This document shows positions 1,962 to 30,526 of a DNA stretch of 64,000 bases, one piece after another. Under the pieces are notes generated by a model, which saw only the letters and a list, made by a program, of their open reading frames with translations, was not told the DNA's origin and did no database searches. The stretch's first letter is position 1. Each line of letters begins with the position of its first letter. The translations under genes were made by a program, and so were the position numbers. This DNA is from Candidatus Uhrbacteria bacterium CG10_big_fil_rev_8_21_14_0_10_48_16 (lineage in GTDB: Bacteria > Patescibacteriota > Patescibacteriia > UBA9934 > GWF2-40-263): NCBI GenBank assembly GCA_002793515.1, contig PFEU01000008.1:6824-70823 (forward strand), given 5' to 3'.

Positions 1962-1995
1962 ACATCATTTTGATCAAAGTTGAATCGTCTGTCAA
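1962..1995 (-). promoter_or_regulatory. Putative sigma-70 promoter of the groES-groEL operon
   Basis: Minus strand shows TTGACA (revcomp at 1990-1995) followed about 17 nt later by CAAAAT / TCAAAAT -10-like hexamers, immediately upstream of the CIRCE element. Confidence 0.4.
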
Positions 1996-6711: not shown

Positions 6712-6712
6712 A

Positions 6713-7138: not shown

Positions 7139-7190
7139 ACGATACAAGATAATTGATGTGCCGAAAGGTTAGCAAAGACAACCGGGCAAA

Positions 7191-9979: not shown

Positions 9980-10058
9980 ATGCCATTATCTTACAGAGTA
10001 CAGGTCCCTTTGTCACATCACACAAAACAAAAGACACGCTCATTGAGCCTGTCTTTTG

Positions 10059-10144
10059 TGGTGCGCGAGAGAGGACTTGAACCTCCACGGCCTTACGGCC
10101 ACCAGCCCCTCAAGCTGGCGTGTCTACCATTTCACCACCCGCGC
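10059..10144 (-). tRNA. tRNA-Leu (anticodon GAG), class II with a long variable arm
   Basis: Revcomp reads GCGCGGGtgGTGaaatggtagACACgCCAGCttgagggGCTGGtggccgtaaggccgtGGAGGttcaagtCCTCTCTCGCGCacca. Anticodon loop TTGAGGG gives GAG. Confidence 0.85.
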
Positions 10145-10201
10145 GTATCCTTTTTTCCGAGAGGATCATACAAGATCCTCCCGAAAAGATCAATCCTCCC
10201 A

Positions 10202-10939
10202 TCAAAACAGTCGATCTTTCCCTGCAATCACTTTAAGAAGCAATGGCTCAATCCCAATATCAAACCGCGTCGATTTCATCTCTTCTCCATCTACAAATAA
10301 TGAAATTGGCTTATCACTTCGAATTGCCATCGAAGAAAGCGGAAGAATACTTTCCTGTAATTGTGTCTGACCAAAAATCCCCCAACCTTTTTTCACTGCT
10401 GCCCGAATGACCGCTTCAAACCGTCCATCCCGCGGATCCGTCACGTCCGTCAAATTTCGAATCTCCAATGTCGCTTGGCGCACGACAGATGTCACACGAA
10501 ACTTATCTTCGCAGGTAATCTCTGCATGAAAATTTGGCATGGATAAGCCGGTGACAAATCGACGTCCATTCACCGTACCCACATCAATCTTCTCCACACG
10601 TCGAGCAGAAAGGATATCGCATGCCGCAACCCCTTCAGGAATTCCCATCATGCGTGCCAATTCATTTCCAGGCCCAATAGGAATAATTCCAAGAACCACG
10701 TCGCTATCGGCAACAACATCAATAACCTTCCGGATGGTCTCATCATTTCCAACCACCACAATCGTTGAAACCCCGTGATCGATTTCATCTCGAATCATCT
10801 CTTCCGCATTTCGAAACAAAGCCAGACGAGAAACCTTTCCCGCTATCCCAAGGTCTGTTAAACGATTCTCGATCTTTAAAAGTTCTCGTTCAAACCGCTT
10901 GTTCTCTTGGATGTACTCATCGTAGAGATAACAATACAT
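10202..10939 (-). CDS. Diacylglycerol kinase catalytic-domain family lipid kinase (YegS/DagK-like)
   Basis: 245 aa. IVVVGNDETIRKVIDV and IIPIGPGNELARMMGI match the DAGK_cat ATP-binding signature. Confidence 0.75.
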   Translation of the reverse strand: MYCYLYDEYIQENKRFERELLKIENRLTDLGIAGKVSRLALFRNAEEMIRDEIDHGVSTIVVVGNDETIRKVIDVVADSDVVLGIIPIGPGNELARMMGIPEGVAACDILSARRVEKIDVGTVNGRRFVTGLSMPNFHAEITCEDKFRVTSVVRQATLEIRNLTDVTDPRDGRFEAVIRAAVKKGWGIFGQTQLQESILPLSSMAIRSDKPISLFVDGEEMKSTRFDIGIEPLLLKVIAGKDRLF

Positions 10940-10945
10940 ACACGC

Positions 10946-11365
10946 TTATTCTCCTGCATCCTCCTGGGGAGTTACTTCAGTTCCTTTACGTCCTCGAGAG
11001 ACAGGTGTTCCATCCTCCATGCTAATACGTCCATTCATACGTGCTCCAGAAGCAATCGAAATTCGACCTGTCACAATATCTCCCGTGACATGTGAGGTCG
11101 AAAGAAGCTCAAGCATTTCTCCAACCATCACGTTGCCGACGACCTCTCCTGCAATCACCGCACTTTCCGCTTTCACATCTGCATGAATTTTTGCCGCTTC
11201 TCCCACATGCAGAACACTTTGTGTCTCCACAGAACCAACGACTTCTCCATCAATCACAACATCTCCTTGTGATCGAAAATCTCCCTCAACACGAACTCCT
11301 TGGGCAATGATTGTCTCATTCCCTGTTGAACTTGGCATAACAGTCTTACTTTTATCCTTAAACAT
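10946..11365 (-). CDS. Bactofilin (polymer-forming cytoskeletal protein)
   Basis: 139 aa of degenerate beta-helical repeats (VRVEGDFRSQGDVVIDGEVVGSVETQSVLHVGEAAKIHADVKAESAVIAGEVVGNV…), characteristic of the bactofilin/DUF583 domain. Confidence 0.7.
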   Translation of the reverse strand: MFKDKSKTVMPSSTGNETIIAQGVRVEGDFRSQGDVVIDGEVVGSVETQSVLHVGEAAKIHADVKAESAVIAGEVVGNVMVGEMLELLSTSHVTGDIVTGRISIASGARMNGRISMEDGTPVSRGRKGTEVTPQEDAGE

Positions 11366-11415
11366 AGATGGTTATTGGATCTTATCAGTTAGAACGCTCT
11401 GGTCAAATCGTTTAT

Positions 11416-13122
11416 CTACATTTCATCAACCGTTTCAATTCCGAGTATTCCCAACCCATGTTGCAACAAATCTCCCACAGAACGAATTAACGCAAGTCGC
11501 TCAGACAAGTCACGCCCTTCCTGTTGAAGAATGGGCTCTCCTGCGTAGAATTCAGAGAATGCTTTTGCAAGCTGGAAAAGAAACTGAGAGAGAATGGCTG
11601 GTTGAAGTTTTTGGATGGTATCAAAGAGCACCTCTGGATACGTTGCGAGCATCATAATAAGTTGATGCTCAGAAGCAGATGTAAGCGTTTCTGCAGACCA
11701 GGAAGGTTTTTTTCTTCCTGCTTTCTTCAACAGACTCTGGATACGCGCATACATATAGAGCAAGTACGGACCTGTATACCCCTCAAACGAAAGGGCGTCC
11801 TTAAGGTTAAAGACGATCTTCTTTCCATTGTCTTGTTTAAGCATGCCAAAACGCATCGCAGAAAACGCAACCGCTCGTACCACCTTGTCGATTTTTTTCT
11901 CAGACCAATCCTCATGTCGTGCGTGTGTCTCTCGACGGGCTTCTTCAAACAGTTCATCTCGCAAATCTTCATAGCGGATAACATTCCCAGTGCGTGCAGC
12001 CATGGCTCCCCCTTCGAGTGTCACAAACTCATACGAGAGATGTTGAAGTTCACGCTCGAAGCCCATGAGTTCCAGTGTCGCGAACAATTGTTGCAACGCA
12101 TGGGACTGTCGTTCATCAACCACATAAATAGATCGTGTGGGGTGATAATCTTCTTCCTTCTTCAGCGCAAGTCCAAGATCCTTTGCATTGTACAAGAGGC
12201 GTCCATCAGACTTGATCAGGAGATTGACTCCTAAATTCTGATCTTCAAGATCCACAATCCATGCTCCTTCTGATTGCTTTACAATCTCTTTCTTAATGAG
12301 ATCGTCAATGATCTTTTTTGTTTTGCCAATCACTTCACTTTCGAAATACCAGTGATCAAGGGTGAGTCCAAGTTCTTCATACACCTGCTTGAGATACTCA
12401 ATAGACCAGCCCCGTGTCTCCTTCCATAGCGCAATCTCGTCTCCGCGTTGATCCTCAAGATGCTGAAAGACTTCTGAAACCTGCACCGAAAATGAAGGTT
12501 GTTCTTTGATCTTCGTCGTCGCTTCGACATACACGTCACGCAAAAAACCAATCCGATCAGCTTCTGAAACTTCTTCTCCTTCATGATAGGTTTTCATGCA
12601 CCAAACAGATTTCGCCACATGCAACCCAAGATCATTGATATACGCCACGGGGACGACATCATATCCACCTGCTTTCAAAAGATTGACGGCTGTTTGACCA
12701 ACAAACAGATTGCGGAGGTGACCAATATGAACATCCTTATGCGAATTCAAGTTCGCAAACTCCACCATGATTCGCTTGTCTTCACCCACATCCGACGTTC
12801 CATATTCATCGCCTAATTCGTGCATCTCCTTCATCACCGCCTCCCCCAACGCACGTGTATCGTAGGTAAAATTCACATACGGACCAACCGCTTTTACCTT
12901 AGCAATATATCCTTTTGGACCAATGGAAGCCGAAAGCTCCACAGCAATCTCATTTGGGTTTCTCTTTAATTTTGATGCGAGCGTAAAGCACGGAAATGCT
13001 AAATCCCCCATCTGGGCATCCGGAGGTATTTCGAAATCTTCCAGAACCGGCACAAAGCCGTGTGGGGCTGCTTGCTTAATCGCTTGAAGCACTTGAGTTT
13101 TTGCGTCTTGTATAACGTACAT
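11416..13122 (-). CDS. argS: Arginine--tRNA ligase
   Basis: 568 aa. HIGH motif NSHKDVHIGHLRN, a class I catalytic core, and a C-terminal DALR anticodon-binding region (DALSFEGYTGPYLLYMYARIQSLL). Confidence 0.95.
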   Translation of the reverse strand: MYVIQDAKTQVLQAIKQAAPHGFVPVLEDFEIPPDAQMGDLAFPCFTLASKLKRNPNEIAVELSASIGPKGYIAKVKAVGPYVNFTYDTRALGEAVMKEMHELGDEYGTSDVGEDKRIMVEFANLNSHKDVHIGHLRNLFVGQTAVNLLKAGGYDVVPVAYINDLGLHVAKSVWCMKTYHEGEEVSEADRIGFLRDVYVEATTKIKEQPSFSVQVSEVFQHLEDQRGDEIALWKETRGWSIEYLKQVYEELGLTLDHWYFESEVIGKTKKIIDDLIKKEIVKQSEGAWIVDLEDQNLGVNLLIKSDGRLLYNAKDLGLALKKEEDYHPTRSIYVVDERQSHALQQLFATLELMGFERELQHLSYEFVTLEGGAMAARTGNVIRYEDLRDELFEEARRETHARHEDWSEKKIDKVVRAVAFSAMRFGMLKQDNGKKIVFNLKDALSFEGYTGPYLLYMYARIQSLLKKAGRKKPSWSAETLTSASEHQLIMMLATYPEVLFDTIQKLQPAILSQFLFQLAKAFSEFYAGEPILQQEGRDLSERLALIRSVGDLLQHGLGILGIETVDEM

Positions 13123-13128
13123 ACCTAT

Positions 13129-15756
13129 CTATCCAGAAGTTAACTGCTGTGTAAGAGTTTGCGCCTTTTTCTGAGCCTCTTCAAGATTTTGTCTCATATC
13201 AGCCACCACCTGCTCAGGCGCTTTTGACGTAAACGCTTCATTTGCAAGCTTTCCTTCAAGACGTTTGATGTACGCAACCGTCTCTTCGTATTGCACTGAA
13301 AGTTTTGCCCGCTCAGCTTCTTGGTCGATGATCCCTTCGAGTGAGACAAGAACTTCGATATCTCGAACAATAACAGACGCAAACTCTCCGACAGGTTTTT
13401 TATTCGCTTTTGTGAGTTTTCTAACACCAGCAAAAAGCTCAACTAGCTTAGATAGATCATCGGGAATGGCTCCAACGAGTACTACATCAACCTTTTGTTT
13501 TAAGGTGAGACCATACTCAGAACGAATATTCCGGATTGCAACTATGACACCCTGAACTTTCTCAAACCAACGTTCTGACTCTGAATGGTAGAAACTTTGT
13601 GATACTACTGGCCACTCGTGGACGATCAACATTGTCTCTGGATCAATCTGCTTCCATAATTCTTCGGTCACAAACGGCATGAACGGATGCCAATAAGCTA
13701 GCAGTCGCTCAAGAATAAAAAGGAGAATTGAATCTGTTGATTCATCTTTTTGTACCTTAGCCACTTCCAAATACCAATCAGCAAATTTACCCCAAGTGAA
13801 ATCACGCAACTTCTCTCCTGCTTGAGAGAACTCATAAGCTTCGAGATGATTCGTAACATCCACCTGAAGCCTACAAAAATGGGAAAGAATCCAATGATCC
13901 GCAAGCGTCTTTGGTACAATTTCTGATTCAGCGACGTGATGAATCTCCTCCACCTGCATGAACACGAAGCGAGAAATATTCCAGAGCTTGTTGGTGAAGT
14001 TTCGATAACCCGCGACCTTCGCCTCGGAAAGTTTCGAGTCGTTCCCTGGTGTGGAACCAATCGTGAGTGAGAGTCGCGTCGCATCCGCACCGTACTCGGC
14101 AATCATGTCGAGTGGGTCGATGATGTTGCCAAGCGACTTGCTCATCTTTCGCCCTTGCTCGTCACGCACCAATCCATGCAGATACACCTTCTCAAATGGA
14201 ATTTGTCCGAGAGTATACGTCGTCATGAGAATCATGCGAGCAACCCAAAAAAACAAAATGTCATAGCCCGTCTCAAGCACCGTCGTTGGATGGAAGGTTT
14301 TGAGATCATCGATCTGGTCAGGCCACCCAAGCGTCGAGAATGTCCAAAGCCCAGAAGAAAACCAGGTATCGAGCGTATCGGGGTCTTGTTCCCATCCATC
14401 CCCTTCTGGCAAGGTGCCCACAGTAATCTCTTCGCCTCGGTACCACACCGGCACACGATGACCGAACCAAATCTGGCGACTGATATTCCAGTCGCGCAAG
14501 TTGTCGATCCAGTGGAAGTAGGTTTTGTTGAAACGATCAGGGATGATTTCGATCTGTCCCTCGCGGACAACCGTCTGCATGAGTTGCTTAAGCGTCACCA
14601 TGTCTCCCTTCTTCATGTTCGCAAGCTCAGCACCCTTAAACGCAAACGCCTTATTCACATCAATAAACCACTGACGCTTTGGAAGCGGTTCAACCGCTTC
14701 GCCACAGCGGTAGCAAACGGATAGGTTGTGCACGTACTCCTCATCAATGTGATCAACCAATCCTTTGGTGGTGAGCTTCTCAACGATTTCCTCTCGAGCT
14801 TCGTGCGCATTCTTCCCAGCAAACGATCCAGCTGCGGCTGTGAACTTCCCGTCCTCGCCGATAATCTGCACGACGTCGAATCCGTACTTCTTAGCCAAAT
14901 CAAAATCGACAAAACTGTGCGCGGGTGTGATGGTCATGGCTCCGGATCCCATTTCCCTATCGGCCGCCTCATCGGCAACCATCTTGGCCATCACGGGTCC
15001 TTCAATCCATTCAACCTCAAACTCCTTCCCTACCAGATCCTTGTATCGATCATCTTGAGGATGGACGATAATGATTTTATCGAGGAATTTTGTTTCCGGT
15101 CGCGCTGTACCGATGACCACCGGCCCGTATTTGAAGTAATAAAACTTCGACTTATGTTCGCGATATTCCACCTCATCATCGGCGAGCGTCGACTTACAAC
15201 GCGGACACCAGTTCACCAGACGGTCACCACGATAAATGAGTCCATCGTCGTACATCATCTTGAAAACCGTATTCACGGCACGGTTGCGTGCCTCGTCGAG
15301 CGTGTATGCTTCTCGCGACCAATCGAGACTGGCCCCCATCTTCTTTGCTTGATTGACGATGGTGTCATGGGATTCAGACGCAAACGCTTCTACACGCTTC
15401 AAAAATTCTTCTCGCCCAAGTTCCTGACGGGGATCTTTCATTCCTTGTGCCATCAGCAACTTCTCAACCTTTGTTTGCGTGGCGATCGCTGCGTGATCCG
15501 TTCCCGGAACCCACAATGCTTTGCGCCAACGCATCCGATTGAAGCGGGTCATAATATCCTCAATGGCAAGCATCACCGCATGACCCATGTGAAGAGTTCC
15601 TGTGACGTTTGGGGGTGGAAGAACAATCGAAAAGCTTTCTGTTCGCTCACCAGGAAGATTATCGGGATTAAAAAAACCACTCTTTTCCCAAGCGGTATAG
15701 ATAGCGTCTTCGTATTCTTTGGCTTCGTAGGCCTTAGGGATATCTTGTTTTGCCAT
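13129..15756 (-). CDS. valS: Valine--tRNA ligase
   Basis: PPPNVTGTLHMGHA (HIGH), KMSKSLGN (KMSKS), an editing domain, and a C-terminal coiled coil. The likely start is MAKQDIP at 15756; the ORF-track start at 15795 adds 13 residues. Confidence 0.95.
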   Translation of the reverse strand: MAKQDIPKAYEAKEYEDAIYTAWEKSGFFNPDNLPGERTESFSIVLPPPNVTGTLHMGHAVMLAIEDIMTRFNRMRWRKALWVPGTDHAAIATQTKVEKLLMAQGMKDPRQELGREEFLKRVEAFASESHDTIVNQAKKMGASLDWSREAYTLDEARNRAVNTVFKMMYDDGLIYRGDRLVNWCPRCKSTLADDEVEYREHKSKFYYFKYGPVVIGTARPETKFLDKIIIVHPQDDRYKDLVGKEFEVEWIEGPVMAKMVADEAADREMGSGAMTITPAHSFVDFDLAKKYGFDVVQIIGEDGKFTAAAGSFAGKNAHEAREEIVEKLTTKGLVDHIDEEYVHNLSVCYRCGEAVEPLPKRQWFIDVNKAFAFKGAELANMKKGDMVTLKQLMQTVVREGQIEIIPDRFNKTYFHWIDNLRDWNISRQIWFGHRVPVWYRGEEITVGTLPEGDGWEQDPDTLDTWFSSGLWTFSTLGWPDQIDDLKTFHPTTVLETGYDILFFWVARMILMTTYTLGQIPFEKVYLHGLVRDEQGRKMSKSLGNIIDPLDMIAEYGADATRLSLTIGSTPGNDSKLSEAKVAGYRNFTNKLWNISRFVFMQVEEIHHVAESEIVPKTLADHWILSHFCRLQVDVTNHLEAYEFSQAGEKLRDFTWGKFADWYLEVAKVQKDESTDSILLFILERLLAYWHPFMPFVTEELWKQIDPETMLIVHEWPVVSQSFYHSESERWFEKVQGVIVAIRNIRSEYGLTLKQKVDVVLVGAIPDDLSKLVELFAGVRKLTKANKKPVGEFASVIVRDIEVLVSLEGIIDQEAERAKLSVQYEETVAYIKRLEGKLANEAFTSKAPEQVVADMRQNLEEAQKKAQTLTQQLTSG

Positions 15757-15961
15757 ATCGCAACGTAGTTTAGGGAAAAACGGGCTATTTTGCAACTATT
15801 TTGTGAAAATAGCTCATGACTCAGATAAATTGACAAAATGTCGATTTTGGAACACAATTCGTCCTCGTTCATTTCATCATTCCTGTTCGGAACAAAGGAC
15901 CTTTCACGGGTTCTGTGTCCCGAGCAGGAACTGTTCGGCCCCATAAACCGGAGGACCAGAC

Positions 15962-18262
15962 ATGGAAAAGAACCTGATGTGTGTGATGTGGATGTTGCTG
16001 GTCTTCCTGACCGGTTGCGACATCGCGCCGTTCATCGGCGACCTGAAGACTTCGGTCTGTGACTTTGATAAGGACGGACTCGCGCGCAGTAGCGACTACT
16101 GTGGCGGTCCGGACTGCGACGACGGCGACCAGGACGTGGGAGAGCCCACCATCTGGTACAACGACGTCGACCAGGACGGCTTCGGCGGTGAGACACAGGA
16201 AACTGCGTGCTCGGCCCCCCCGAACTTCGTCGACCACAATGGCGACTGCGACGACACCAGTGAACTCGTCCACCCAGACGCCATCGAAGTCTGCAACGGG
16301 TACGACGACAACTGCGACGGCGGGATCGATGACGAGAACATCCCCACCTGGTACGCAGACGTCGACACCGATGGCTACGGCGACCTCGCAAACTCTCAGG
16401 AGTCCTGCGACGAGCCCACGGGCTACGTCGACAACAGCGATGACTGCGACGACGGCGATGCGACGGTCAACCCTGAAGGGGTGGAGATCTGTGACGACGG
16501 CATCGACCAGGACTGCAACGGCATCATCGACGACGCCGACGGATCTGTCACCTGGTACGCAGACGCGGACGGTGACAGCTACGGCGACCCGGAAAATCTC
16601 CTCGCTACGTGCGTGGAGAACCCCGAAGGGTACGTCAGCAACGCCAACGACTGCGACGACAGCGAAGCAGACGTGAACCCCAGCGCCGTCGAGATCTGTG
16701 ACGATCTCATCGACAACAACTGCAACGGTGAAACCGACACGGACACCGAAGACGTCAACTGGTACGCCGACGTGGACGGTGACGGCTACGGCGACGAGTC
16801 GGACAGCCTCGTCGACTGTGCTCCGCCCGAGAGATACGTCGAAGACTTGACCGATTGCGACGATGCCGACGCAGACATCAACCCCGGTGTCGACGAAGTC
16901 TGCAACAACGACATCGACGACAACTGCGACGGGTCCCCCAACGCCTGTGACCACGCTGGAACCATCAGCTTCAGTACGGCAGATGGAACCATCGATGGCA
17001 TGGAGGTGGGTGGATACGCCGGATTTGCGCTCGCAAGCGCCGGTGACTTCAACCTCGATGGCTTCGACGATGTGGTGATGAGTGCCTCACAAGCACACAC
17101 CGTCTACATCTTCTTCGGCCCCATCACCGGAGCGCTCGACACGGACTCGGCCGACATCACCCTCGAAGGACCTTCGGGTTCCTACGCGGGAATGGCGGTC
17201 GCTGGTGCGTGCGATCTCGACGGAGACGGCAACAACACCGACATCCTCGTCGGTGGCCCCTACGACACCGACAACGGAAGCGAAGCCGGTGCCGTCTGGG
17301 TCATCTCTGGCCCCATCTCGTCCGGCACCTACTCGCTGGACGCCATCGCAGACGCCAAGTTGACGGGCAGTGCGGGAAGCCGGTTCGGCTCCTCCGTGGA
17401 CTGCTCCGGTGATAACGATGGGGACGGCAAGGATGACATCCTCGTCGGCGCTCCCAACGATGACGCAACGGCAGAAGATGCCGGCGCGGTCTATCTCGGG
17501 ATCAGCCCGGTCGCCAGCGGAAGCTCCACGAGCCTCATCTCGCTCCTGGGCGTGACCACTGATGATGCGACAGGCTCCATGGTCACCTTCGCGGACGTGG
17601 ACGGTGACGGCTATGCCGACGTCGTCATCGGCACCCATCAGGATGACGATGTCGATACCAATGCGGGTGCCATCGCCATCTTCCTGGGACCCCTCACCTC
17701 CTCGGCTTCGGTGTCCACCGCGGACATCAAGCTGACTGGCGAAAACACCTCGGACTTCGCGGGACGCACCCTCAAGGCGGGAGACATCGACGGGGACGGC
17801 AACGACGACCTGCTCGTTGGCGCCTACCAGTACGACTCCAGCACAGGAGCCTTCTACATCGTCTATGGCGGGGCGACACTCGCGTCCGGATCGCTGAGCA
17901 CGCACATCAAAGTCACGGGAGAAGCCTCAGGCGACAGCGCAAGCTACGGCCTGGGGGGAATCTGTGACTTCGATAGGGACGGAAGCAACGATCTGTTCAT
18001 CGGAGCTCGCACCGAGAGCTCATCGGCTTCGCAAGCCGGCGCGCTCTATATCTTCCACGGAGCTCCCACCAGCGGAAGCACGCTCGGCTCAGCATACGCC
18101 AAGTTCACCGGCGAAACCGCTGGAGACTACGCTGGAGGTGCTCTCGCCACGATGGACCTCGATGGCGACGGGTTCTGTGACGTCGTCACCAGTGCCTACC
18201 TGGGTGACTACACCGGATCGAACACCGGGCGAGTCTACGCCATCTACGGCCTGGGCTACTAG
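15962..18262 (+). CDS. GC-rich secreted lipoprotein with four Cys-rich 'putative metal-binding motif' (MopE-like) repeats followed by FG-GAP/integrin-alpha-type beta-propeller repeats; probable horizontally acquired gene
   Basis: 766 aa. Signal peptide with lipobox MLLVFLTGC, and GGAGGA 8 nt before the ATG. Four repeats of WY.DVDxDGYG…DCDDxDxxVxPxAxExCxxxDxxCdG, then at least 7 repeats of DxDGDGxxDxxVGA (FG-GAP). GC content and codon use (GAC, GGC, third-position G/C) are far above all neighbours. The antisense frames carry Arg-rich spurious ORFs typical of high-GC DNA. Confidence 0.8.
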   Translation: MEKNLMCVMWMLLVFLTGCDIAPFIGDLKTSVCDFDKDGLARSSDYCGGPDCDDGDQDVGEPTIWYNDVDQDGFGGETQETACSAPPNFVDHNGDCDDTSELVHPDAIEVCNGYDDNCDGGIDDENIPTWYADVDTDGYGDLANSQESCDEPTGYVDNSDDCDDGDATVNPEGVEICDDGIDQDCNGIIDDADGSVTWYADADGDSYGDPENLLATCVENPEGYVSNANDCDDSEADVNPSAVEICDDLIDNNCNGETDTDTEDVNWYADVDGDGYGDESDSLVDCAPPERYVEDLTDCDDADADINPGVDEVCNNDIDDNCDGSPNACDHAGTISFSTADGTIDGMEVGGYAGFALASAGDFNLDGFDDVVMSASQAHTVYIFFGPITGALDTDSADITLEGPSGSYAGMAVAGACDLDGDGNNTDILVGGPYDTDNGSEAGAVWVISGPISSGTYSLDAIADAKLTGSAGSRFGSSVDCSGDNDGDGKDDILVGAPNDDATAEDAGAVYLGISPVASGSSTSLISLLGVTTDDATGSMVTFADVDGDGYADVVIGTHQDDDVDTNAGAIAIFLGPLTSSASVSTADIKLTGENTSDFAGRTLKAGDIDGDGNDDLLVGAYQYDSSTGAFYIVYGGATLASGSLSTHIKVTGEASGDSASYGLGGICDFDRDGSNDLFIGARTESSSASQAGALYIFHGAPTSGSTLGSAYAKFTGETAGDYAGGALATMDLDGDGFCDVVTSAYLGDYTGSNTGRVYAIYGLGY

Positions 18263-18286
18263 CCTCAGGCTCACGCGCCCCCACGG

Positions 18287-18330
18287 GCACCCCCCACCCT
18301 TTGACAAGCTCAGGGTGGGGATTTTCTTTT
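18287..18330 (+). terminator. Rho-independent terminator of the GC-rich gene
   Basis: CCCACCCtttgacaagctcAGGGTGGGGattttctttt is an 8-bp GC stem followed by a T-rich tract, 25 nt after the stop codon. Confidence 0.55.
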
Positions 18331-18428
18331 CCTTAATTCCCTTGACGCACCTGAAAAAAGCCTGTAAGTTAGCTCCTTACCCGTGCTTGTTGAAGGTAAG
18401 TAACATATAATTGAACTTACAAATTGGC

Positions 18429-19568
18429 ATGGCCCTGAAGCAGTCACAACAAGTCCTAGAAGCTATCAAGCGAAGCACTCGCCCACTTATTTGTATTCCC
18501 TCTGGTGGTGGTCCTGATGCGTATGCAACGGCTCTGGGTCTTTCGAGTGTTCTCAAGAAACTCGAAAAGGAACCTGTCATTGTCGCTGCGGACGGAAAAG
18601 TTCCAAGCAATCTCCAGTTCTTATCCGGACATGGGGACGTTCACACAAAGCTTGAGAATCTCCGACAGTTCGTGATTGAACTCGACGCATCAAAAACAAA
18701 AGTCGATAGTCTCACCTATGAACACAAGGGAGAAAAACTCTTTGTCTACCTTTCTCCGAAAAAGGGATTCTGGGATCAAAAAGATGTGCGCACCAGTTCT
18801 AGTGGGTATCGATTTGATCTGATTATCTGCATCGGTTCTCCAGACTATGAGTCTTGCGCTCATCTCTATGCGGAAAATCCAGACTTCTTTTTTCGAACAC
18901 CCGTTATCAATATTGATCACACTCCTGAAAATGAACACTACGGGCAAATCAATGCCGTCGATCTCACAGCAAGTGCGTGTGGTGAAGTCTGTCACGATCT
19001 CATTGAAGCTATCGAACCCGGCCTTATTGACGAAGAAGTCGCAACCGCATTCCTCACAGGAATGATTGCAAAAACAAAAAGCTTTCGCACAAGCAACGTC
19101 ACGCCCAAAACGCTTCAGACGGCTAGCAAGCTTATGGCCAAAGGAGCCAGACGAGATGATATTGTTCAGCGCCTCTATCGAACCCGTTCCGTTCCTACCT
19201 TGCGACTTTGGGGTCGCACCCTCGCTCGCTTAAAAGCGGACGAGGAAGCGAAAATGGTTTGGACACTTCTTTCAAAACAAGACTTCTTACATGCAGGAGC
19301 CCAAGAAGAAGATCTTCCTGATGTGATCGATGAGCTCATCGCGTCTTCCCCGAATGCCCGGGTGGTTGTCCTTCTCTATGAAAACTCAGAAAACAATATT
19401 TGCGTCATTGTCAGAGGAGAACGCCCGATCGATGTCATCGAGCTCTGTAAAGGATTTAATGCTTCGGGAACCCGAGAAGAAGTTCGACTCTGCATCATGA
19501 AAAAGAATATCGTCCAAGTCGAAAAAGAACTGATTCCTGCTATACGAAAACAACTTCTAAAAAAATAA
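18429..19568 (+). CDS. DHH-family phosphoesterase (NrnA-like oligoribonuclease/pAp phosphatase family)
   Basis: N-terminal DHH-domain layout (PDAYATALGL…IICIGSPDYESC…NIDHTPENEHYG) and a C-terminal DHHA1-like region. The ORF-track start at 18411 is TTG; the first ATG is 18429. A possible -35/-10 pair (TTGACG-17-TAAGTT) lies at about 18343-18371. Confidence 0.6.
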   Translation: MALKQSQQVLEAIKRSTRPLICIPSGGGPDAYATALGLSSVLKKLEKEPVIVAADGKVPSNLQFLSGHGDVHTKLENLRQFVIELDASKTKVDSLTYEHKGEKLFVYLSPKKGFWDQKDVRTSSSGYRFDLIICIGSPDYESCAHLYAENPDFFFRTPVINIDHTPENEHYGQINAVDLTASACGEVCHDLIEAIEPGLIDEEVATAFLTGMIAKTKSFRTSNVTPKTLQTASKLMAKGARRDDIVQRLYRTRSVPTLRLWGRTLARLKADEEAKMVWTLLSKQDFLHAGAQEEDLPDVIDELIASSPNARVVVLLYENSENNICVIVRGERPIDVIELCKGFNASGTREEVRLCIMKKNIVQVEKELIPAIRKQLLKK

Positions 19569-19599
19569 CAGACTCAAACGAGCCTGTTATTTTTTTAGA
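19566..19599. terminator. Bidirectional terminator between convergent genes
   Basis: taACAGACTCaaacGAGCCTGTtattttttt is a 9-bp stem with 1 mismatch and a run of 7 T. It has an A-run on the other side, so it can serve the minus-strand gene ending at 19603 as well. Confidence 0.55.
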
Positions 19600-19602
19600 T
19601 CA

Positions 19603-22110
19603 CTATTCAACAACCTCGACCGGAGCATCAGCTTCTGGATCTGATTCCCCTGTTTCATCCGTTACTTCTTCAACGACTTCTCCTGGATCAACATCTACCA
19701 CTCCGCCCTGACCTCCTTGAATCGGTTCTGGAATACTTGTTGTTGTCTCACCTGCACGCAATCGTGCAAGACGCACGGATGCCACCTCATTCTCTGGATT
19801 AATCTTCACAACTTGCTCGATCGCCGAAATCGCTCCTTCGATATTTCCTGAAATTTCATACATTGAGGCGAGATACCAAAGCGCATTTGAATAATTCGGG
19901 CTTATTTCCACAATCCGCTCAAGTTCTTGTTGAGCAATAGCATACTCTTCTAATCGAATAAGCATTTGTGTGAGTTGAAAAGAGAGCCCGATATCCGCTG
20001 GATTATTATTTCGCAGAGCCACAAGTCTTTCTGTCGCCTGTTCAAGCTTTCCTTGTCGTTCATAGGTCGCTGCCAAGTAGTAATGCGCTGGTAAGTAATC
20101 AGACTTCAATTCTGTTGCCTCAAGAAACACTTGTTCTGCTGTCGAAAGAAGGTTTGTTTCTTGCTCAACGGCTTGCTCCGCAAGTTCTGCATCATCCGCT
20201 GTTGTGAGGTTTCGCGCTCGATCGGCAACCGTAAGATACACACGACCTAAATCTGTTCGATGGATAGGATTGTTCGGTTCAAGTTGAATCGCGTTGATAA
20301 AAGATTGGGCTGCAAGCTCCTCAGCGCCTTGCGCAAAACTCATGAGGTCTCGATAGATGGCCCCACGCACGGCCCAGTTTGAAACATAATTCGGTTCAAT
20401 AGATGTCGCGCGAGCGGCCGCTTCAACAGAAGCCGTTACGGTATCAACAATCTGCTGTGTTTCCTCAGCTGTTCGTTCTTCTTCTCCCGCTGTGAGGACA
20501 ATCAGTTCACGCGCTTTCATCAGATAGGCAGAACTAAGATTCCGTTGATACACATCGCTAAATCCATTGAAGGTGACAGCTCGATTCAACTGAGCAATAA
20601 CCTCATCAACCGTTCCTTCCTCTGACGTATCGATTTCTACCGCTTTAGCAAACGCCACCTCTGCCACATAGCGAGAACCTGTCACAAAGAGAGACACCAC
20701 GACAACAACGGCCACCATCGCAAACGCAAAGGACGTTGCCAAACCGAGTCGTGGAGATCGAGAAAAATCACTCGTCCACGTTTTTAACGAAACCTGGGAT
20801 GCGAGCAATCCCGTAAATCCCCAAAGCAAGAACGTCATCGTAAAGTTTGAAGAGTAGAGGATATGTGTCAGGAGAAGAATAGACCATCCTGTAAATATGA
20901 CGTACGTCATCTTCCACTCCTCGTGGTCACGTTCAAACACCAACCGCCCAATAGCCTTTACCGCAACCCATACCATCAACACGAGCCAGAAAAACGTTCC
21001 AACAACACCGAGCGTTCCCAGCGTCGTTATGAGATCACTCTTCGCTCGATCAAAACGCAAAGACCAAAATGGCGAAGTGTTCACTCCTACAGGCTTGAAT
21101 GCCAAATAATCATACAGATAGGTTCCTGGTCCTGATCCAAACAATAAGTTACTCGTATTTGAGGAAAGAACCTGCTTCGTAATATCCCAACTTGTTCCAT
21201 AACTTGGAGAAACAACAATGGGGAGATTCAACTTAAGAGGGCTTGGGAAAAAGAGAAAGAGGATACTGAGCCCCAGCACGACAATCGGAAGGGCAAATCT
21301 TCGTGGATTAGGAAATTCTTGCGCCTGAATAAAGACGAACGTTCCTAACAAAAGAACGCCAACGATATTAATCACCCAAAAAACCCAAAAGTCTAAAGCC
21401 ATCAGTCCAACAATATTCACACCTGTCACGAAAACGATCAGCATGCGAAGGAACATTCCGCTTCCTCCCTCTGGAATCACACGATCACGACCCTGATGGG
21501 AAACGAGCCACATGGCAAGTCCCACAAACATGATCGTCGTCATAAATGAAACAAATCCATTGATTGTTCCGATCGTATTGAATCCTATGGATTGGGCAAA
21601 CTCAAATGGAAGATGAAGAATATCAAATATCCCAAGCAGTGCTATGAGACCAGAAAGTGCAGAGGAAAGAAAAAGCGCAAAGAGTACATGACGTTGTACA
21701 AGCGTATCTCCAGCCGTATTCATGAGCATGTAAAACAGCACAACGAACAACATCACAGAAAGAAAGCTTGTGTACTCTTGTGACGACTGCCCTACCCAGG
21801 TCTGATATCCGGCCAAAGACGTGAGAGAAGCAATAAGAACGGAAACGAAATATAATCCTGGAATGACATTTAACCATCCAGACCTGAAGGTAAATTTCTT
21901 GCTTGAAACCATTTGTCCAAGCCAAGCAACCAAACCGACAACCGTGAGCACTACAAAAAGAAGCTGTTTATTGTGTTCAAGAACACTGGTTGTCCAAGGA
22001 AGGAAAAAGATTGGGACGAGAAAAAAGAGGAGATATGTCGCCCAACGTGTGATCACCCCAAAGAGAGGCATCTCCTGACCACGACGTGATGATGTTGCAA
22101 CAGTGGACAT
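19603..22110 (-). CDS. Wzy_C (O-antigen ligase/polymerase-like) membrane protein fused to C-terminal TPR repeats
   Basis: 835 aa. About 12 TM helices in the N-terminal 460 aa with a Wzy_C-like core. The C-terminal 350 aa are TPR-like helical repeats (…AYLMKARELIVLTAGEE…YYLAATYERQGKLEQA…WYLASMYEISGNIEGA…) and end in an acidic/Pro tail. Confidence 0.7.
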   Translation of the reverse strand: MSTVATSSRRGQEMPLFGVITRWATYLLFFLVPIFFLPWTTSVLEHNKQLLFVVLTVVGLVAWLGQMVSSKKFTFRSGWLNVIPGLYFVSVLIASLTSLAGYQTWVGQSSQEYTSFLSVMLFVVLFYMLMNTAGDTLVQRHVLFALFLSSALSGLIALLGIFDILHLPFEFAQSIGFNTIGTINGFVSFMTTIMFVGLAMWLVSHQGRDRVIPEGGSGMFLRMLIVFVTGVNIVGLMALDFWVFWVINIVGVLLLGTFVFIQAQEFPNPRRFALPIVVLGLSILFLFFPSPLKLNLPIVVSPSYGTSWDITKQVLSSNTSNLLFGSGPGTYLYDYLAFKPVGVNTSPFWSLRFDRAKSDLITTLGTLGVVGTFFWLVLMVWVAVKAIGRLVFERDHEEWKMTYVIFTGWSILLLTHILYSSNFTMTFLLWGFTGLLASQVSLKTWTSDFSRSPRLGLATSFAFAMVAVVVVVSLFVTGSRYVAEVAFAKAVEIDTSEEGTVDEVIAQLNRAVTFNGFSDVYQRNLSSAYLMKARELIVLTAGEEERTAEETQQIVDTVTASVEAAARATSIEPNYVSNWAVRGAIYRDLMSFAQGAEELAAQSFINAIQLEPNNPIHRTDLGRVYLTVADRARNLTTADDAELAEQAVEQETNLLSTAEQVFLEATELKSDYLPAHYYLAATYERQGKLEQATERLVALRNNNPADIGLSFQLTQMLIRLEEYAIAQQELERIVEISPNYSNALWYLASMYEISGNIEGAISAIEQVVKINPENEVASVRLARLRAGETTTSIPEPIQGGQGGVVDVDPGEVVEEVTDETGESDPEADAPVEVVE

Positions 22111-22121
22111 AGTAAAAACAA

Positions 22122-22604
22122 TTACTGATTAGATTTGTACTGCTGAATAGCTTGAAGAACTTTTGAATTCTCGGTCATGTTCTCGAAAAAAAGAATATGA
22201 CTGACATTAATTTCCATTTGGTCCTCTGGACCATGCGCTTCGCTTCCAAGTTTTGTCAGAGAAAGATTTGTTTCTTGATCAACCGCAACTCCTGATTGAA
22301 GATAAAAAACATCTCGCAAAATATAAAAATCTTTCCTTGTTTTTTCAAGTTTCCCAAAATACACCTGACCATTATCAAGAAACACGGCTTGATAGTCATC
22401 CGAATTTGAACTCACGGAAACATCAGAGACTCCTGCGGAACCATCCATTGATCCCTTATTTTCTTGTGTGTAGTACCAAGCCCCACCTAACAATGCGATA
22501 AAAAGAAGAATCGTGATCCACGTCCAAGCCCCAAACCTTCTTTTTCCATTTTCTTGTTGAGGACGACCGATAGGACCGCGACTCATTTTTGATTCAATAG
22601 CCAT
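22122..22604 (-). CDS. Hypothetical membrane-anchored protein (single N-terminal TM, extracytoplasmic domain)
   Basis: 160 aa: basic N-terminus, one TM helix (WTWITILLFIALLGGAWYY), then a soluble domain. 11 nt downstream of the Wzy_C-TPR gene start. Confidence 0.45.
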   Translation of the reverse strand: MAIESKMSRGPIGRPQQENGKRRFGAWTWITILLFIALLGGAWYYTQENKGSMDGSAGVSDVSVSSNSDDYQAVFLDNGQVYFGKLEKTRKDFYILRDVFYLQSGVAVDQETNLSLTKLGSEAHGPEDQMEINVSHILFFENMTENSKVLQAIQQYKSNQ

Positions 22605-22682
22605 AAAAAATGTAGTAAATACGCTGGTTATCTTACCGGATCAACAAGGGAGTCACAAGTTTAGATGTGGGTAACAAAGAAT

Positions 22683-22719
22683 AAATTAAAAGACGAGACC
22701 CCATAGATCTCGTCTTTTC
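22683..22719 (-). terminator. Rho-independent terminator after the giant protein gene
   Basis: On the minus strand a hairpin AAGACGAGAtctatggggTCTCGTCTT is followed by tttaatttatt, 11 nt past the stop codon. Confidence 0.45.
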
Positions 22720-22729
22720 TTGTCCCTAT

Positions 22730-29104: not shown

Positions 29105-29266
29105 ACGTTAACGAGCTTATGAAAAATCTTGTTAAAAGATTGAAGGAAAGGTCAAGTGATCACGGCGAAGAAATCACATTCTGAAAATGGGAAACGCAAG
29201 GCCTGGGTTATGCCTAGTCATTTCATCGCCAAATCACTCTATCTCTTATGAACTTCAAAAATGATT

Positions 29267-30508: not shown

Positions 30509-30526
30509 AGAGTTTCTAAGTCCCTT

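What the first reader, a model, noticed from the sequence alone, without database searches (positions are those of the whole stretch)
15880..18330. Single-gene high-GC island: MopE-like Cys-rich metal-binding repeats plus FG-GAP propeller lipoprotein, probably acquired horizontally
The 15962..18262 coding sequence and its own terminator have a base composition by eye of roughly 60-65% GC. Third codon positions are dominated by G/C (GAC, GGC, GTC, CTG). Everything else in the window sits nearer 45-50%. Spurious Arg-rich ORFs appear on the opposite strand, as expected for high-GC DNA.

The protein combines two features that are typical of Myxococcota and other high-GC lineages:
- a lipoprotein signal (…LTGC)
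- four copies of the 'putative metal-binding motif' repeat (W-Y-x-D-x-D-x-D-G-[YF]-G … DCDDxxxxVxPxAxExCxxxDDNCDG) followed by seven or more FG-GAP/integrin-alpha beta-propeller blades

It sits between valS and a DHH phosphoesterase with no integrase or transposase nearby, so whatever mechanism brought it in has left no recognisable scar. Functionally it would add a Ca/metal-binding surface beta-propeller (adhesion or ligand capture) to a cell envelope already rich in large surface proteins.
Basis: partly seen in the sequence, partly recalled or inferred. Interest (0 to 1): 0.72.

Follow-up and report, generated by a model that had tools for sequence, protein, structure and literature searches.

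The report
Ancestral GC-rich surface lipoprotein gene
The high-GC gene is real, but it is not a recent foreign insert: it is an old, fast-evolving surface lipoprotein gene (calcium-binding repeats plus an integrin-like propeller) that sits in the same slot, behind the same promoter, in most related Uhrbacteria, and it is unusually GC-rich in almost all of them.

Summary
CDS 15962-18262 (766 aa) has GC 0.62 and GC3 0.79, against 0.46 and 0.43 for 48 other genes (z about 7; tetranucleotide z 11.9). It encodes a lipobox signal, four PF11617 Cys/Asp repeats and a 7-bladed integrin-alpha-like FG-GAP propeller.

The "horizontally acquired single-gene island" reading is not supported.
- The window is from a Candidatus Uhrbacteria MAG. 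About 20 related species loci carry a homologue next to the DHH-like gene: 16 have a readable full gene, and 13 of 15 share a locus-specific promoter.
- The two species that lack it are sister taxa and keep promoter remnants, so they lost it.
- GC3 of this gene exceeds its neighbours in 15 of 16 species (mean +0.14). The window is the extreme (+0.33).
- Amino-acid composition, strand, codon context and translational selection do not explain the excess.

The gene is a mosaic. Its repeat half tracks the species tree. Propeller modules have been exchanged between lineages, and the adjacent valS has also been swapped.

Most likely function: a Ca2+-dependent, lipid-anchored adhesin whose propeller sets specificity.

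Why its silent sites stay GC-rich is unresolved. Candidates are biased gene conversion, selection, lag behind genome GC decline, or old import.

The parts
15824..15876 (+). Conserved promoter block of the gene. It has -35 TTGACA (15830-15835), ATTTT in the 17-nt spacer, -10 CACAAT (15853-15858), then CGTTCATTT (15866-15874).
   Evidence: The promoter scan scores it 10/12. The same block lies upstream of the orthologue in 13 of 15 loci, with TTGAC invariant. TTGACAAAA-N5-ATTTT occurs only once in the 64 kb window.
15880..15930 (+). Window-specific GC-rich leader hairpin: an imperfect inverted repeat TTCCTGTTCGG...CCGAGCAGGAA. It marks the left edge of the GC-rich stretch.
   Evidence: RNA fold of 15866-15975 gives -43.7 kcal/mol, z = -4.5, and 0 of 200 shuffles fold as well. 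It is unique in the window. Other loci have shorter leaders without it.
15950..15954 (+). Ribosome-binding site GGAGG, 7 nt before the ATG.
   Evidence: Read from the sequence. CCGGAGG is shared with L002.
15962..18262 (+). CDS of 766 aa: a lipoprotein with MopE-motif repeats and an FG-GAP propeller. NCBI lists it as COV05_01665, hypothetical protein, Candidatus Uhrbacteria bacterium CG10_big_fil_rev_8_21_14_0_10.
15962..16018 (+). Signal peptide with lipobox L-T-G-C; the lipidated Cys19 codon is 16016-16018.
   Evidence: The sequence, with an AF2 helix over residues 2-18. The Cys and the following ISPF(V/I)..LK motif are kept in the 14 orthologues whose N-terminus was called correctly (L013's was not). 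Cys19 is at least 90% conserved in the 24-sequence alignment.
16148..16948 (+). Four repeats of about 67 aa (aa 63-329). Each has WYxDxDxDG[YF]G ... DCDDxxxx[VI]xP ... ExC ... D[DN]NC[DN]G, with 4 invariant Cys and 2 DxDxDG loops. A partial fifth copy lies at aa 33-60.
   Evidence: Pfam PF11617 x4. C83/96/111/118, 149/162/177/185, 217/231/246/254 and 286/299/314/322 are invariant. AF2 pLDDT is 74-91 here.
16949..18259 (+). Seven-bladed FG-GAP beta-propeller (aa 330-766). Every blade has a DxDxDG Ca2+-loop motif, at residues 362, 418, 484, 545, 608, 669 and 732.
   Evidence: Pfam FG-GAP x7. phmmer against PDB: integrin alpha5, E = 5e-16. AF2 pLDDT is mostly above 90. Foldseek PDB top hits are integrin alpha propellers, E about 1e-16, TM (target) up to 0.69.
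18292..18332 (+). Intrinsic-terminator-like hairpin: a 9-bp G+C stem CCCCACCCU/AGGGUGGGG with an 11-nt loop, followed by AUUUUCUUUUCC. It marks the right edge of the GC-rich stretch.
   Evidence: RNA fold gives -26.6 kcal/mol, z = -2.25. The pattern scan missed it because the loop exceeds 8 nt. Analogous hairpins follow the orthologues.
18327..18410 (+). Conserved upstream region of the DHH-like gene (CCCTTGACGC...GCCTGTAAGTTAGC). It is not part of the gene and marks the right boundary of the variable cassette.
   Evidence: 78-85% nucleotide identity to the same position in L002-L004, L006, L015-L017, and also in the X-less loci L008 and L010.

Best explanation
The gene, called X here, is an ancestral and fast-evolving surface lipoprotein gene of this Uhrbacteria (Patescibacteria/CPR) family. 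It has a fixed position, not a recent insertion. It is transcribed divergently from valS, from its own promoter, and that promoter is conserved across the family.

Inferred mechanism of the protein:
1. It is exported with a type II signal peptide and lipid-anchored on Cys19.
2. Four disulfide-stabilised, Ca2+-binding Cys/Asp repeats form a stalk.
3. The stalk presents a 7-bladed, Ca2+-loaded, integrin-alpha-like propeller.
4. The propeller binds a ligand on another cell or surface.

Evolution. The propeller is the specificity module. It diverges far faster than the neighbouring genes and is exchanged between lineages as a module. The repeat half and the promoter are inherited vertically.

Composition. 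The GC richness is a long-standing property of this gene in the whole family.
- About 3.5 of the 16.5 GC points above the mean of the other genes come from its Asp/Gly/Ala/Cys-rich composition.
- The rest comes from synonymous codon choice, which is strand-symmetric and uniform along the gene.
- The contrast is greatest in the window because this genome is among the GC-poorer ones, with the neighbouring sister clade GC-richer, while the gene kept GC-rich silent sites.

Shown versus inferred. Shown: synteny, promoter conservation, loss scars, the family-wide GC3 excess, mosaic phylogeny, domain architecture and fold. Inferred: lipidation, Ca2+ binding, the adhesin role, and any cause of the silent-site GC bias.
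For: Synteny and loss
- Orthologues of 760-825 aa, with the same 4 + 7 architecture, lie between valS and the DHH-like gene in L002, L003, L004 and L006.
- A genome scan found the DHH-like gene at 23 further species loci. Across all loci, about 20 carry an X homologue next to it. Sixteen are readable full genes. Four are partial or weak matches at contig edges (L018, L021, L022, L025). Three have a local inversion (L019, L022, L028).
- Only L008 and L010 lack it. They are sister taxa (76% bootstrap) nested among carriers. They retain the valS-proximal part of the X promoter, plus -10 or -35 remnants.

Promoter
- It is conserved in 13 of 15 loci and is unique within the window.

Composition
- X GC3 exceeds its neighbours in 15 of 16 species, mean +0.14, Wilcoxon p = 9e-5. 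The window is +0.33, which is 2.2 sd above the family regression.
- Expected GC3 from its own amino acids under host codon usage, strand and next-base context is 0.41-0.44. The observed value is 0.79.
- At 4-fold sites, C and G are both raised about 1.6-fold relative to same-strand genes.
- GC3 is the same at conserved and variable residues.

Vertical repeat half
- The window and L004 are sisters with 100% bootstrap.
- Their repeat halves are 68% identical, the closest pair for the window.
- Silent 4-fold identity above chance is 0.20, against 0.12-0.28 for argS, DHH and TPR.

Exchanged propeller
- Window-L004 propellers are 38% identical, with silent-site excess 0.01.
- The window propeller groups with L002 and then L003/L015 at 100% bootstrap.
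- The L003-L015 propeller has silent identity 0.73 against about 0.54 for housekeeping genes (p = 5e-7).
- L024-L027 have argS 93% identical but X only 49%.

Protein
- D+E is 159 against K+R 16, and there are 16 DxDxDG loops.
Against: - No experiment or expression data exist for any member.
- The adhesin role rests on domain analogy, plus literature suggestions that integrin-type domains in CPR surface proteins mediate host contact (PMC13059738).
- Deep nodes of the propeller tree are unresolved, so the Uhrbacteria genes were not shown to be monophyletic against long homologues from GC-rich bacteria.
- Trees are neighbour-joining on repeat-rich proteins.
- The silent-site tests use small samples. 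N-half against C-half, n = 73 and 97, gives p = 0.07. Window silent GC-to-AT changes are 10/101 against 43/232, p = 0.05.
- The window's excess is much larger than that of any relative and is not explained mechanistically.
- A cluster of MopE-repeat genes in another Patescibacteria contig shows the same CDS-limited GC richness. This could instead point to a shared foreign gene pool.
Confidence: 0.75

Rival explanations
1. Recent horizontal acquisition of a single-gene island from a GC-rich donor such as Myxococcota, inserted between valS and the DHH gene.
For: Composition is extreme for this genome. The named non-CPR full-length homologues come from Myxococcota or 'Deltaproteobacteria', and one sampled homologue lies in a 71% GC contig.
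Against: - The slot is filled in about 20 related species loci, behind a conserved promoter. Two losses left scars.
- The best non-self hit among 5.8 billion proteins is another Uhrbacteria orthologue at 60%. The non-CPR full-length homologues shown are about 33-41% identical.
- Silent sites of the repeat half match the sister species as well as housekeeping genes do.
- The 4-fold C/G ratio (2.1) equals that of host same-strand genes (1.9).
- There are no mobility genes among the scanned neighbours and no flanking repeats.
Confidence: 0.04
2. In-situ allelic replacement. All or part of the window's copy was overwritten by homologous recombination with an allele from a GC-richer Uhrbacteria relative. 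The large contrast would then be the donor-host GC difference added to the family-wide bias.
For: - The locus is recombination-prone. Propeller and species trees conflict at 100% bootstrap.
- The L003-L015 propeller was exchanged recently.
- The adjacent valS exists as two types of about 50% identity, distributed patchily. The window differs from its sister in valS type.
- Relatives with GC3 backgrounds of 0.55-0.65 carry X at GC3 0.73-0.80, like the window.
Against: - The nearest known allele is only 60% identical, so no donor has been sampled.
- The repeat half is closest to the sister species, with housekeeping-like silent divergence.
- Window-L002 propeller silent-site similarity (0.09) is like that of housekeeping genes (0.06-0.14). 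This fits vertical descent of an ancestral allele, with replacement in L004 and L006 instead.
Confidence: 0.15
3. The silent-site GC richness is actively maintained by GC-biased gene conversion at a recombination hot spot. The gene is vertical, but it recombines often with population variants.
For: - The excess is strand-symmetric: G and C are both about 1.6-fold higher at 4-fold sites.
- It is uniform along the gene and independent of residue conservation, and it extends into the leader.
- The locus shows repeated recombination.
- In the window lineage, silent GC-to-AT changes in X are about half as frequent as in housekeeping genes: 10/101 against 43/232.
- An association between recombination and GC3 in bacteria is reported in PMC4450053.
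Against: - The recently exchanged L003/L015 propeller is not especially GC-rich (GC3 0.49-0.52).
- The also-swapped valS shows little GC3 excess.
- In my reading, from memory, the effects reported in PMC4450053 are small compared with the +0.33 seen here.
- Intergenic spacers between GC-rich MopE genes in L031 are host-like.
- No population data are available.
Confidence: 0.2
4. Ancient import of the gene family into an Uhrbacteria ancestor from a GC-rich lineage, with amelioration that is still incomplete and uneven.
For: - The excess varies from 0 to +0.33 among species and is smallest in the most divergent clade, L024-L027.
- Sites where the outgroups agree are overwhelmingly G/C in the repeat half, 101 of 107.
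- Homologues are abundant in GC-rich bacteria.
- A MopE gene in a 36% GC Bacteroidota-like contig is fully adapted, so the repeat does not itself demand GC-rich codons.
Against: - Orthologues are 30-60% identical, and silent sites between most species pairs are near saturation. Neutral decay should therefore be complete.
- Since the window-L004 split, roughly half of silent sites have changed, yet the window's repeat half still has GC4 0.82. My back-of-envelope inference is that a neutral model would need an ancestral value above 1.
Confidence: 0.2
5. Selection on codon usage, for translational efficiency or accuracy, in an abundant Asp/Asn/Tyr/Gly-rich protein.
For: C-ending codons are strongly preferred: ATC 37/37, AAC 0.92, TAC 0.88, GAC 0.80. 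The GC enrichment in L031 is limited to the CDSs.
Against: - Conserved and variable residues do not differ (GC3 0.75 against 0.78).
- The apparent C-specific bias disappears once the host's strand asymmetry is considered.
- The ribosomal-protein-sized genes at 6340-7745 show no such bias (NNY C fraction 0.23-0.29).
- Leader and terminator are also GC-rich.
Confidence: 0.07

Closest known systems
Integrin alpha-subunit beta-propeller (FG-GAP repeats, PF01839)
   Same: It has a seven-bladed propeller with DxDxDG Ca2+-loop motifs. Sequence similarity to integrin alpha5 is E = 5e-16. The AF2 model matches alpha5, alphaV and alphaIIb headpieces at Foldseek E about 1e-16, with TM (target) 0.65-0.69.
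   Different: It is bacterial, lipid-anchored at the N-terminus, and has no thigh/calf domains and no beta subunit. All seven blades carry the Ca2+-loop motif; from memory, only the last three or four do in integrins. Identity is only 16-19%.
Uncharacterised PF11617-repeat + FG-GAP proteins of Myxococcota and other GC-rich bacteria (about 1,000-1,340 aa)
   Same: They share the domain grammar: a conserved N-terminal Cys, tandem MopE-motif repeats, and a C-terminal 7-blade propeller. They are 33-41% identical over 85-98% of the query. Cys19 is at least 90% conserved.
   Different: The Uhrbacteria genes are a short form: 4 repeats rather than about 10, and mostly 760-825 aa. They occupy a fixed syntenic slot and are compositionally deviant in their hosts. 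The one homologue sampled in a 71% GC genome matches its background.
MopE/CorA secreted copper-binding proteins of methanotrophs
   Same: They share the roughly 30-residue Cys/Asp motif that defines PF11617.
   Different: [quoted passage not shown] No similarity outside the motif was seen here: PDB sequence hits are integrins only. The MopE copper site has two His and a kynurenine (PMC3423442) and lies outside this motif. X has 7 His and is dominated by acidic Ca2+-type loops.
Hypervariable surface-antigen loci held between conserved housekeeping genes, for example O-antigen or capsule loci (analogy from general knowledge)
   Same: The position is fixed and the flanks and promoter are conserved. 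Allele lineages are deeply divergent and do not follow the species tree. Modules are exchanged laterally, and composition is atypical.
   Different: It is a single protein-coding gene rather than a biosynthetic cluster. Its composition is GC-rich rather than the usual AT-rich. It is seen at species to family depth rather than within a species.
Cys-rich motif of teneurins and algal gametolysins
   Same: The core C.DG.DN.CDG..D motif aligns with the PF11617 consensus (PMC3278476).
   Different: This is motif-level resemblance only. There are no YD/NHL repeats.

Membership tests
Genomic island / recent horizontal acquisition | Atypical base composition and codon usage relative to the host | tested here: met
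   GC z = 7.3, GC3 z = 6.8, tetranucleotide z = 11.9.
Genomic island / recent horizontal acquisition | Absent from the same site in close relatives (empty site) | tested here: not met
   It is present at about 20 related species loci. It is absent only in sister taxa L008 and L010, which keep promoter remnants.
Genomic island / recent horizontal acquisition | Mobility genes, a tRNA target or flanking direct repeats | tested here: not met
   The scanned neighbours (8213-15795, 18411-31426, and X) have no integrase or transposase domains; genes beyond that span were not scanned. The nearest tRNA is at 10059. Repeats lie only within the gene.
Genomic island / recent horizontal acquisition | Phylogeny conflicting with the species tree and pointing to a donor | tested here: inconclusive
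   The propeller half conflicts with the species tree, but only among Uhrbacteria. The repeat half agrees with it. Deep nodes against non-CPR homologues are unresolved.
Bacterial lipoprotein (type II signal peptide) | n-region, hydrophobic h-region and lipobox [LVI][ASTVI][GAS]C | tested here: met
   MEKN-LMCVMWMLLVF-LTGC. The Cys and the downstream motif are kept in the orthologues with correctly called N-termini. AF2 models a helix over residues 2-18.
Bacterial lipoprotein (type II signal peptide) | Host encodes Lgt and LspA; the protein is lipidated | not tested
   Only 64 kb of the genome is available, and there are no experimental data.
FG-GAP / integrin-alpha-type beta-propeller | Seven FG-GAP repeats above the Pfam threshold that fold into a closed 7-blade propeller | tested here: met
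   PF01839 scores 114.6 bits (cutoff 22.1) with 7 stretches. AF2 pLDDT is above 90. Foldseek matches integrin propellers.
FG-GAP / integrin-alpha-type beta-propeller | Ca2+ bound in DxDxDG loops | not testable with these tools
   The motif is present in all 7 blades. Metal binding itself was not measured.
PF11617 'putative metal-binding motif' repeat proteins | Motif above the Pfam gathering score, in tandem copies, with conserved Cys | tested here: met
   94.7 bits (cutoff 27) with 4 stretches. 16 Cys are invariant.
MopE/CorA copper-binding proteins proper | Homology across the MopE fold, including the His/His/kynurenine copper site | tested here: not met
   Only the short motif matches. PDB sequence hits are integrins only. 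The limitation of PF11617 is stated in PMC6189053.

The most novel reading that the evidence does not exclude
The valS-X slot is a host-recognition hot spot of Uhrbacteria. Propeller modules are swapped between species there, and silent sites are actively kept GC-rich against the genome's AT pressure, by biased gene conversion or by selection on DNA or mRNA. The same force would act on other MopE-repeat surface genes in Patescibacteria, such as the L031 cluster. If so, this is a gene-specific, long-lived compositional regime in CPR bacteria that mimics horizontal transfer, and it would give a sequence marker for their attachment genes.
Probability: 0.25. Interest if true: 0.65.

Novelty: new member of a known kind. 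Interest (0 to 1): 0.42.

Why it matters
First, this is a caution for composition-based detection of horizontal transfer. A z = 7 GC island, with foreign-looking codon usage and Myxococcota-like domains, turns out to be an old resident gene. Synteny, promoter conservation and silent-site comparison were needed to show that.

Second, it singles out a candidate attachment protein in Uhrbacteria, a group with no cultured members. The protein is lipid-anchored and integrin-like. Its propeller evolves and is exchanged much faster than the rest of the locus, which is the behaviour expected of a host-specificity determinant.

Third, the silent-site GC excess persists in 15 of 16 species and also appears in another Patescibacteria MopE gene cluster. 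No standard explanation (amino-acid composition, strand, context, translational selection) accounts for it. It could be tested with the existing metagenomic reads.

Tried and rejected
1. Amino-acid composition as the cause. It explains only 0.456 to 0.491 of the observed GC 0.621, and expected GC3 is 0.40.
2. Next-base context and strand. Expected GC3 is 0.41-0.44.
3. A bias specific to C-ending codons. It looked striking (C3 0.60, G3 0.18; C3 excess in 17/17 loci). It is an artefact of Asp/Asn/Tyr-rich composition plus the host's strong strand asymmetry. Same-strand genes have the same 4-fold C/G ratio, 1.9 against 2.1.
4. Translational accuracy or efficiency. Conserved and variable sites do not differ, and the ribosomal-protein-sized genes at 6340-7745 show no bias.
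5. Concerted evolution of the repeats. There are no DNA-level tandem arrays, and the repeat units are only 60-80% identical.
6. A bias intrinsic to MopE repeats. It is absent in a Bacteroidota-like genome.
7. Riboswitch or known RNA in the leader. Rfam finds only four tRNAs in the window.
8. Assembly chimera. An independent contig is identical, and the junctions are conserved in other MAGs.
9. att-like flanking repeats. None were found.
10. Organism names for the non-CPR homologues. The cluster look-up returned none.
11. Literature on Uhrbacteria with FG-GAP. There were no papers.
12. The pattern-based terminator scan found nothing because of its loop-size limit. Folding shows the hairpin.

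Full report
**1. Observation.**
The window averages 46.6% GC. The two 1-kb bins inside 16001-18000 reach 61.6% and 62.9%.
- The ORF 15962-18262 (+), 766 aa, has GC 0.621 and GC1/2/3 of 0.61/0.47/0.79.
- The 48 other CDSs have GC 0.456 ± 0.023 (max 0.519) and GC3 0.434 ± 0.052 (max 0.541), giving z = 7.3 and 6.8.
- The tetranucleotide distance to the rest of the window has z = 11.9.
- At 100-bp resolution the GC-rich stretch runs from about 15880 to about 18320. That covers part of the 5' leader (GC 0.56), the CDS and the terminator (GC 0.63).
- The valS-side spacer is 0.33 and the spacer before the next gene is 0.41.
- Long Val- and Arg-rich ORFs lie on the opposite strand.
- Pfam finds four PF11617 motifs and seven FG-GAP repeats, both far above threshold. 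The N-terminus is a lipoprotein signal, LTGC.
- An independent JGI contig (L001) is identical over 12,011 bp, including both junctions, so this is not an assembly chimera.

**2. Origin of the window.**
The protein is identical to COV05_01665 of Candidatus Uhrbacteria bacterium CG10_big_fil_rev_8_21_14_0_10. The next-best hits among 5.8 billion proteins are proteins of 760-779 aa with the same architecture, 48-60% identical. Several are named Candidatus Uhrbacteria. Full-length non-CPR homologues are 33-41% identical and about 1,000-1,340 aa long.

**3. Synteny.**
In four other Uhrbacteria contigs the orthologue has the same context: argS, valS | X | DHH-like gene | TPR membrane protein. I then searched one genome per GTDB species with an alignment of the DHH-like protein. 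This returned 23 loci with 73-89% identity.

tblastn with the window's five proteins gave the following.
- About 20 species loci carry an X homologue next to the DHH-like gene.
- Sixteen have a readable full gene.
- Four are partial or weak matches (29-39% identity) at contig edges: L018, L021, L022 and L025.
- In L019, L022 and L028 the arrangement includes a local inversion.
- Only L008 and L010 lack X, with valS and the DHH-like gene about 200 bp apart.
- Four loci have no upstream sequence.

A concatenated argS+DHH+TPR tree places L008 and L010 together (76% bootstrap), inside a clade of carriers (92%).

**4. Promoter and loss scars.**
Upstream of X, 13 of 15 loci share the block ATTGACAAAA-N5/6-ATTTT-...-(G/A)A(A/T)NAT-...-CGTTCxTTT.
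- In the window this is the predicted promoter at 15830-15858.
- The motif TTGACAAAA-N5-ATTTT occurs nowhere else in the 64 kb, so it is locus-specific rather than a generic promoter consensus.
- L008 and L010 keep the valS-proximal part of this block, GTAGGCAAAAAACCCTTCTTTTGCAAT. L008 also keeps a -10 remnant (GAAGATCGC), and L010 a truncated -35 (TGACAA).
- Downstream, the 84 bp before the DHH-like gene (from about 18327) are 78-85% identical across loci, including the two X-less ones.

X is therefore ancestral at this site. L008 and L010 lost it by deletion.

**5. The GC excess is a family trait.**
X exceeds its neighbours (argS, valS, DHH, TPR) in GC in 16 of 16 species and in GC3 in 15 of 16.
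- The mean GC3 excess is +0.14 (Wilcoxon p = 9e-5).
- The regression is X_GC3 = 0.25 + 0.77 × background.
- The window has the largest excess, +0.33, which is 2.2 sd above the regression.
- The excess is larger in the repeat half than in the propeller half in every genome.

**6. What does not explain the excess.**
- Amino-acid composition. Under the window's codon usage, X's own residues predict GC 0.49 and GC3 0.40.
- Strand and next-base context. Adding them gives GC3 0.41-0.44.
- A C-specific codon bias. One appeared at first. However, the window has strong strand asymmetry: plus-strand genes have 4-fold C 0.31 and G 0.16, and minus-strand genes the reverse. X has the same C/G ratio as other plus-strand genes (2.1 against 1.9), with both bases raised about 1.6-fold. 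The pressure is therefore strand-symmetric, superimposed on the host skew.
- Translational accuracy. GC3 is the same at conserved and variable residues (0.75 against 0.78) and flat along the gene.
- Translational efficiency. The ribosomal-protein-sized genes at 6340-7745 show no such bias.
- Concerted evolution. The repeats are not homogenised at the DNA level.
- The motif itself. A MopE/T9SS gene in a 36% GC Bacteroidota-like contig sits at background (GC3 0.25). One in a 71% GC genome also matches its background.

A Patescibacteria contig (L031, background about 45% GC) does show the pattern. It carries four adjacent genes, three of them with MopE repeats, with GC3 0.75-0.86. They are separated by host-like spacers of 0.32-0.47.

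**7. Mosaic evolution.**
The neighbours are well conserved between species: DHH 72-90% and argS 60-83% identity to the window. X is only 31-61% identical, and its divergence is not clock-like. For example, L024-L027 have argS 93% but X 49%.

Repeat half and propeller half:

| Pair | Repeat half identity | Propeller identity |
|---|---|---|
| Window vs L004 (sister species, 100% bootstrap) | 0.68 (closest pair for the window) | 0.38 |
| Window vs L002 | 0.63 | 0.59 |

- In a propeller tree, the window groups with L002 (100%), and then with L003/L015/P0005 (100%). This excludes L004 and L006.
- Silent 4-fold identity above chance between the window and L004 is 0.12-0.28 in housekeeping genes. 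It is 0.20 in the repeat half and 0.01 in the propeller.
- Between L003 and L015 the propeller is more alike at silent sites (0.73) than housekeeping genes are (about 0.54; p = 5e-7). This indicates a recent exchange of that module.
- Window-L002 propeller silent similarity (0.09) matches housekeeping genes (0.06-0.14).

The simplest reading is that the window kept an ancestral allele group, shared with L002 and L003/L015, and that L004 and L006 replaced their propellers. Nothing requires a transfer into the window lineage.

**8. Silent-site history in the window lineage.**
I used L002 and L006 as outgroups and considered sites where they agree.
- Such sites in the repeat half are almost all G/C (101 of 107).
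- Since the split from L004, the window changed 10 of 101 to A/T, and L004 changed 17 of 101.
- In argS+DHH the window changed 43 of 232 (Fisher p = 0.05).
- GC4 in the repeat half is now 0.82 in the window and 0.59 in L004, against backgrounds of 0.40-0.48.

My inference is that roughly half of neutral sites have turned over since the split. Simple neutral amelioration therefore cannot leave 0.82, so something slows GC loss in this gene in this lineage. Within its well-supported clade, the window/L004 pair has lower background GC3 (about 0.41-0.45) than the sister group of L002, L006 and L012 (0.55-0.63). This fits a genome-wide GC decline that X has not followed. The cause is unresolved. I rank the candidates as follows:
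- biased gene conversion at a recombining locus (PMC4450053 reports the association in bacteria);
- residual signal of an old import;
- partial overwriting by GC-richer alleles;
- selection on the transcript or DNA, as the least likely.

**9. The protein.**
- Residues 1-19 form a signal peptide with the lipobox Cys. The Cys and the following ISPF(V/I)..LK motif are kept in the 14 orthologues whose N-terminus was called correctly (L013's was not). Cys19 is at least 90% conserved among 24 homologues.
- Residues 63-329 are four modules of about 67 aa. Each has four invariant Cys and two DxDxDG loops. A partial module lies at residues 33-60.
- Residues 330-766 form a seven-bladed propeller, modelled at pLDDT above 90.
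- Its best structural and sequence matches are integrin alpha5, alphaV and alphaIIb headpieces. A DxDxDG loop is present in every blade.
- The protein has 159 acidic and 16 basic residues.
- PF11617 covers only a small motif of true MopE (PMC6189053). The MopE copper site uses His and kynurenine (PMC3423442). Copper binding should therefore not be assumed; Ca2+ is more likely (inference).

My model is a lipid-anchored, Ca2+-rigidified stalk that carries a ligand-binding propeller. Integrin-type domains in large CPR surface proteins have been proposed as host-contact candidates (PMC13059738). The rapid, modular turnover of the propeller fits a specificity determinant. All of this is inferred.

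**10. Transcript features.**
- The window's leader contains a 51-nt hairpin at 15880-15930. Over 15866-15975 the fold is -43.7 kcal/mol, z = -4.5. Other loci lack it, and it is unique in the window.
- The RBS GGAGG is at 15950-15954.
- A 9-bp G+C stem followed by a U-tract at 18292-18332 resembles an intrinsic terminator.
- No Rfam family matches the leader.

**11. Verdict.**
The anomaly is real and strong. It marks an old resident gene, not a recent insertion. The protein is a new, short, syntenic subfamily of a known but uncharacterised domain architecture. The interesting residue is evolutionary: a recombining, probably host-facing gene whose silent sites stay GC-rich across a whole CPR family. 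Interest is moderate (0.42).

Noticed in passing
window 13129-15795 (-), valS; compare L004, L012, L017: Two deeply different valS types, about 50% identical, are distributed patchily among closely related Uhrbacteria. The window carries the type shared with L012 and L017 (75% identity). Its sister species L004 (argS 83%, DHH 90% identical) carries the other type (56%), plus an extra MscS gene between argS and valS. valS itself therefore seems to have been replaced laterally within this family, independently of X.
   Followed up: partly
window 22730-31426 (-): A cohesin-domain protein (29267-30508) lies next to a dockerin-domain protein (30527-31426). Both lie next to a 2124-aa ORF (22730-29104) with no Pfam match. 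This may be a cohesin-dockerin surface assembly in a CPR bacterium.
   Followed up: no
window 18411-19568 (+): The 'DHH phosphoesterase' label is weak. There is no Pfam hit at E <= 1e-3, and the NrnA NCBIfam match scores only 32.8 bits against a cutoff of 350. Yet the protein is one of the best-conserved in the locus, 72-90% identical across species.
   Followed up: partly
whole window: Silent 4-fold sites show strong strand asymmetry. Plus-strand genes have C 0.31 and G 0.16. Minus-strand genes have C 0.16 and G 0.25. GC skew is negative along the entire plus strand, so the long plus-strand gene block at 33.9-61 kb lies on the C-rich strand.
   Followed up: partly
window 15880-15930 (+): A stable 51-nt imperfect palindrome lies in the X leader. 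It is absent from the orthologous leaders and occurs only once in the window. It could be an mRNA-stabilising or regulatory stem-loop, or a small inserted element.
   Followed up: partly
L031:713-9758: In another Patescibacteria contig with about 45% GC background, four adjacent genes have GC3 0.75-0.86. Three carry MopE repeats. AT-rich, host-like spacers separate them, and an IS110 transposase lies about 5 kb away. This is the same CDS-limited GC richness as in X.
   Followed up: partly
L012:8105-9760; L008:6495-6715; L010:9812-10001: The slot is decaying in one clade. L012 has a truncated 551-aa X. L008 and L010 have lost X and keep only promoter fragments.
   Followed up: yes
window 1992-3260 (-), 19603-22110 (-), 56458-58428 (+): There are three multi-pass membrane proteins. 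The latter two have C-terminal TPR-like regions. Pfam TPR hits are confirmed only for 19603-22110; the others were judged by eye. This is an O-antigen-ligase-like/TPR architecture that recurs in this genome.
   Followed up: no
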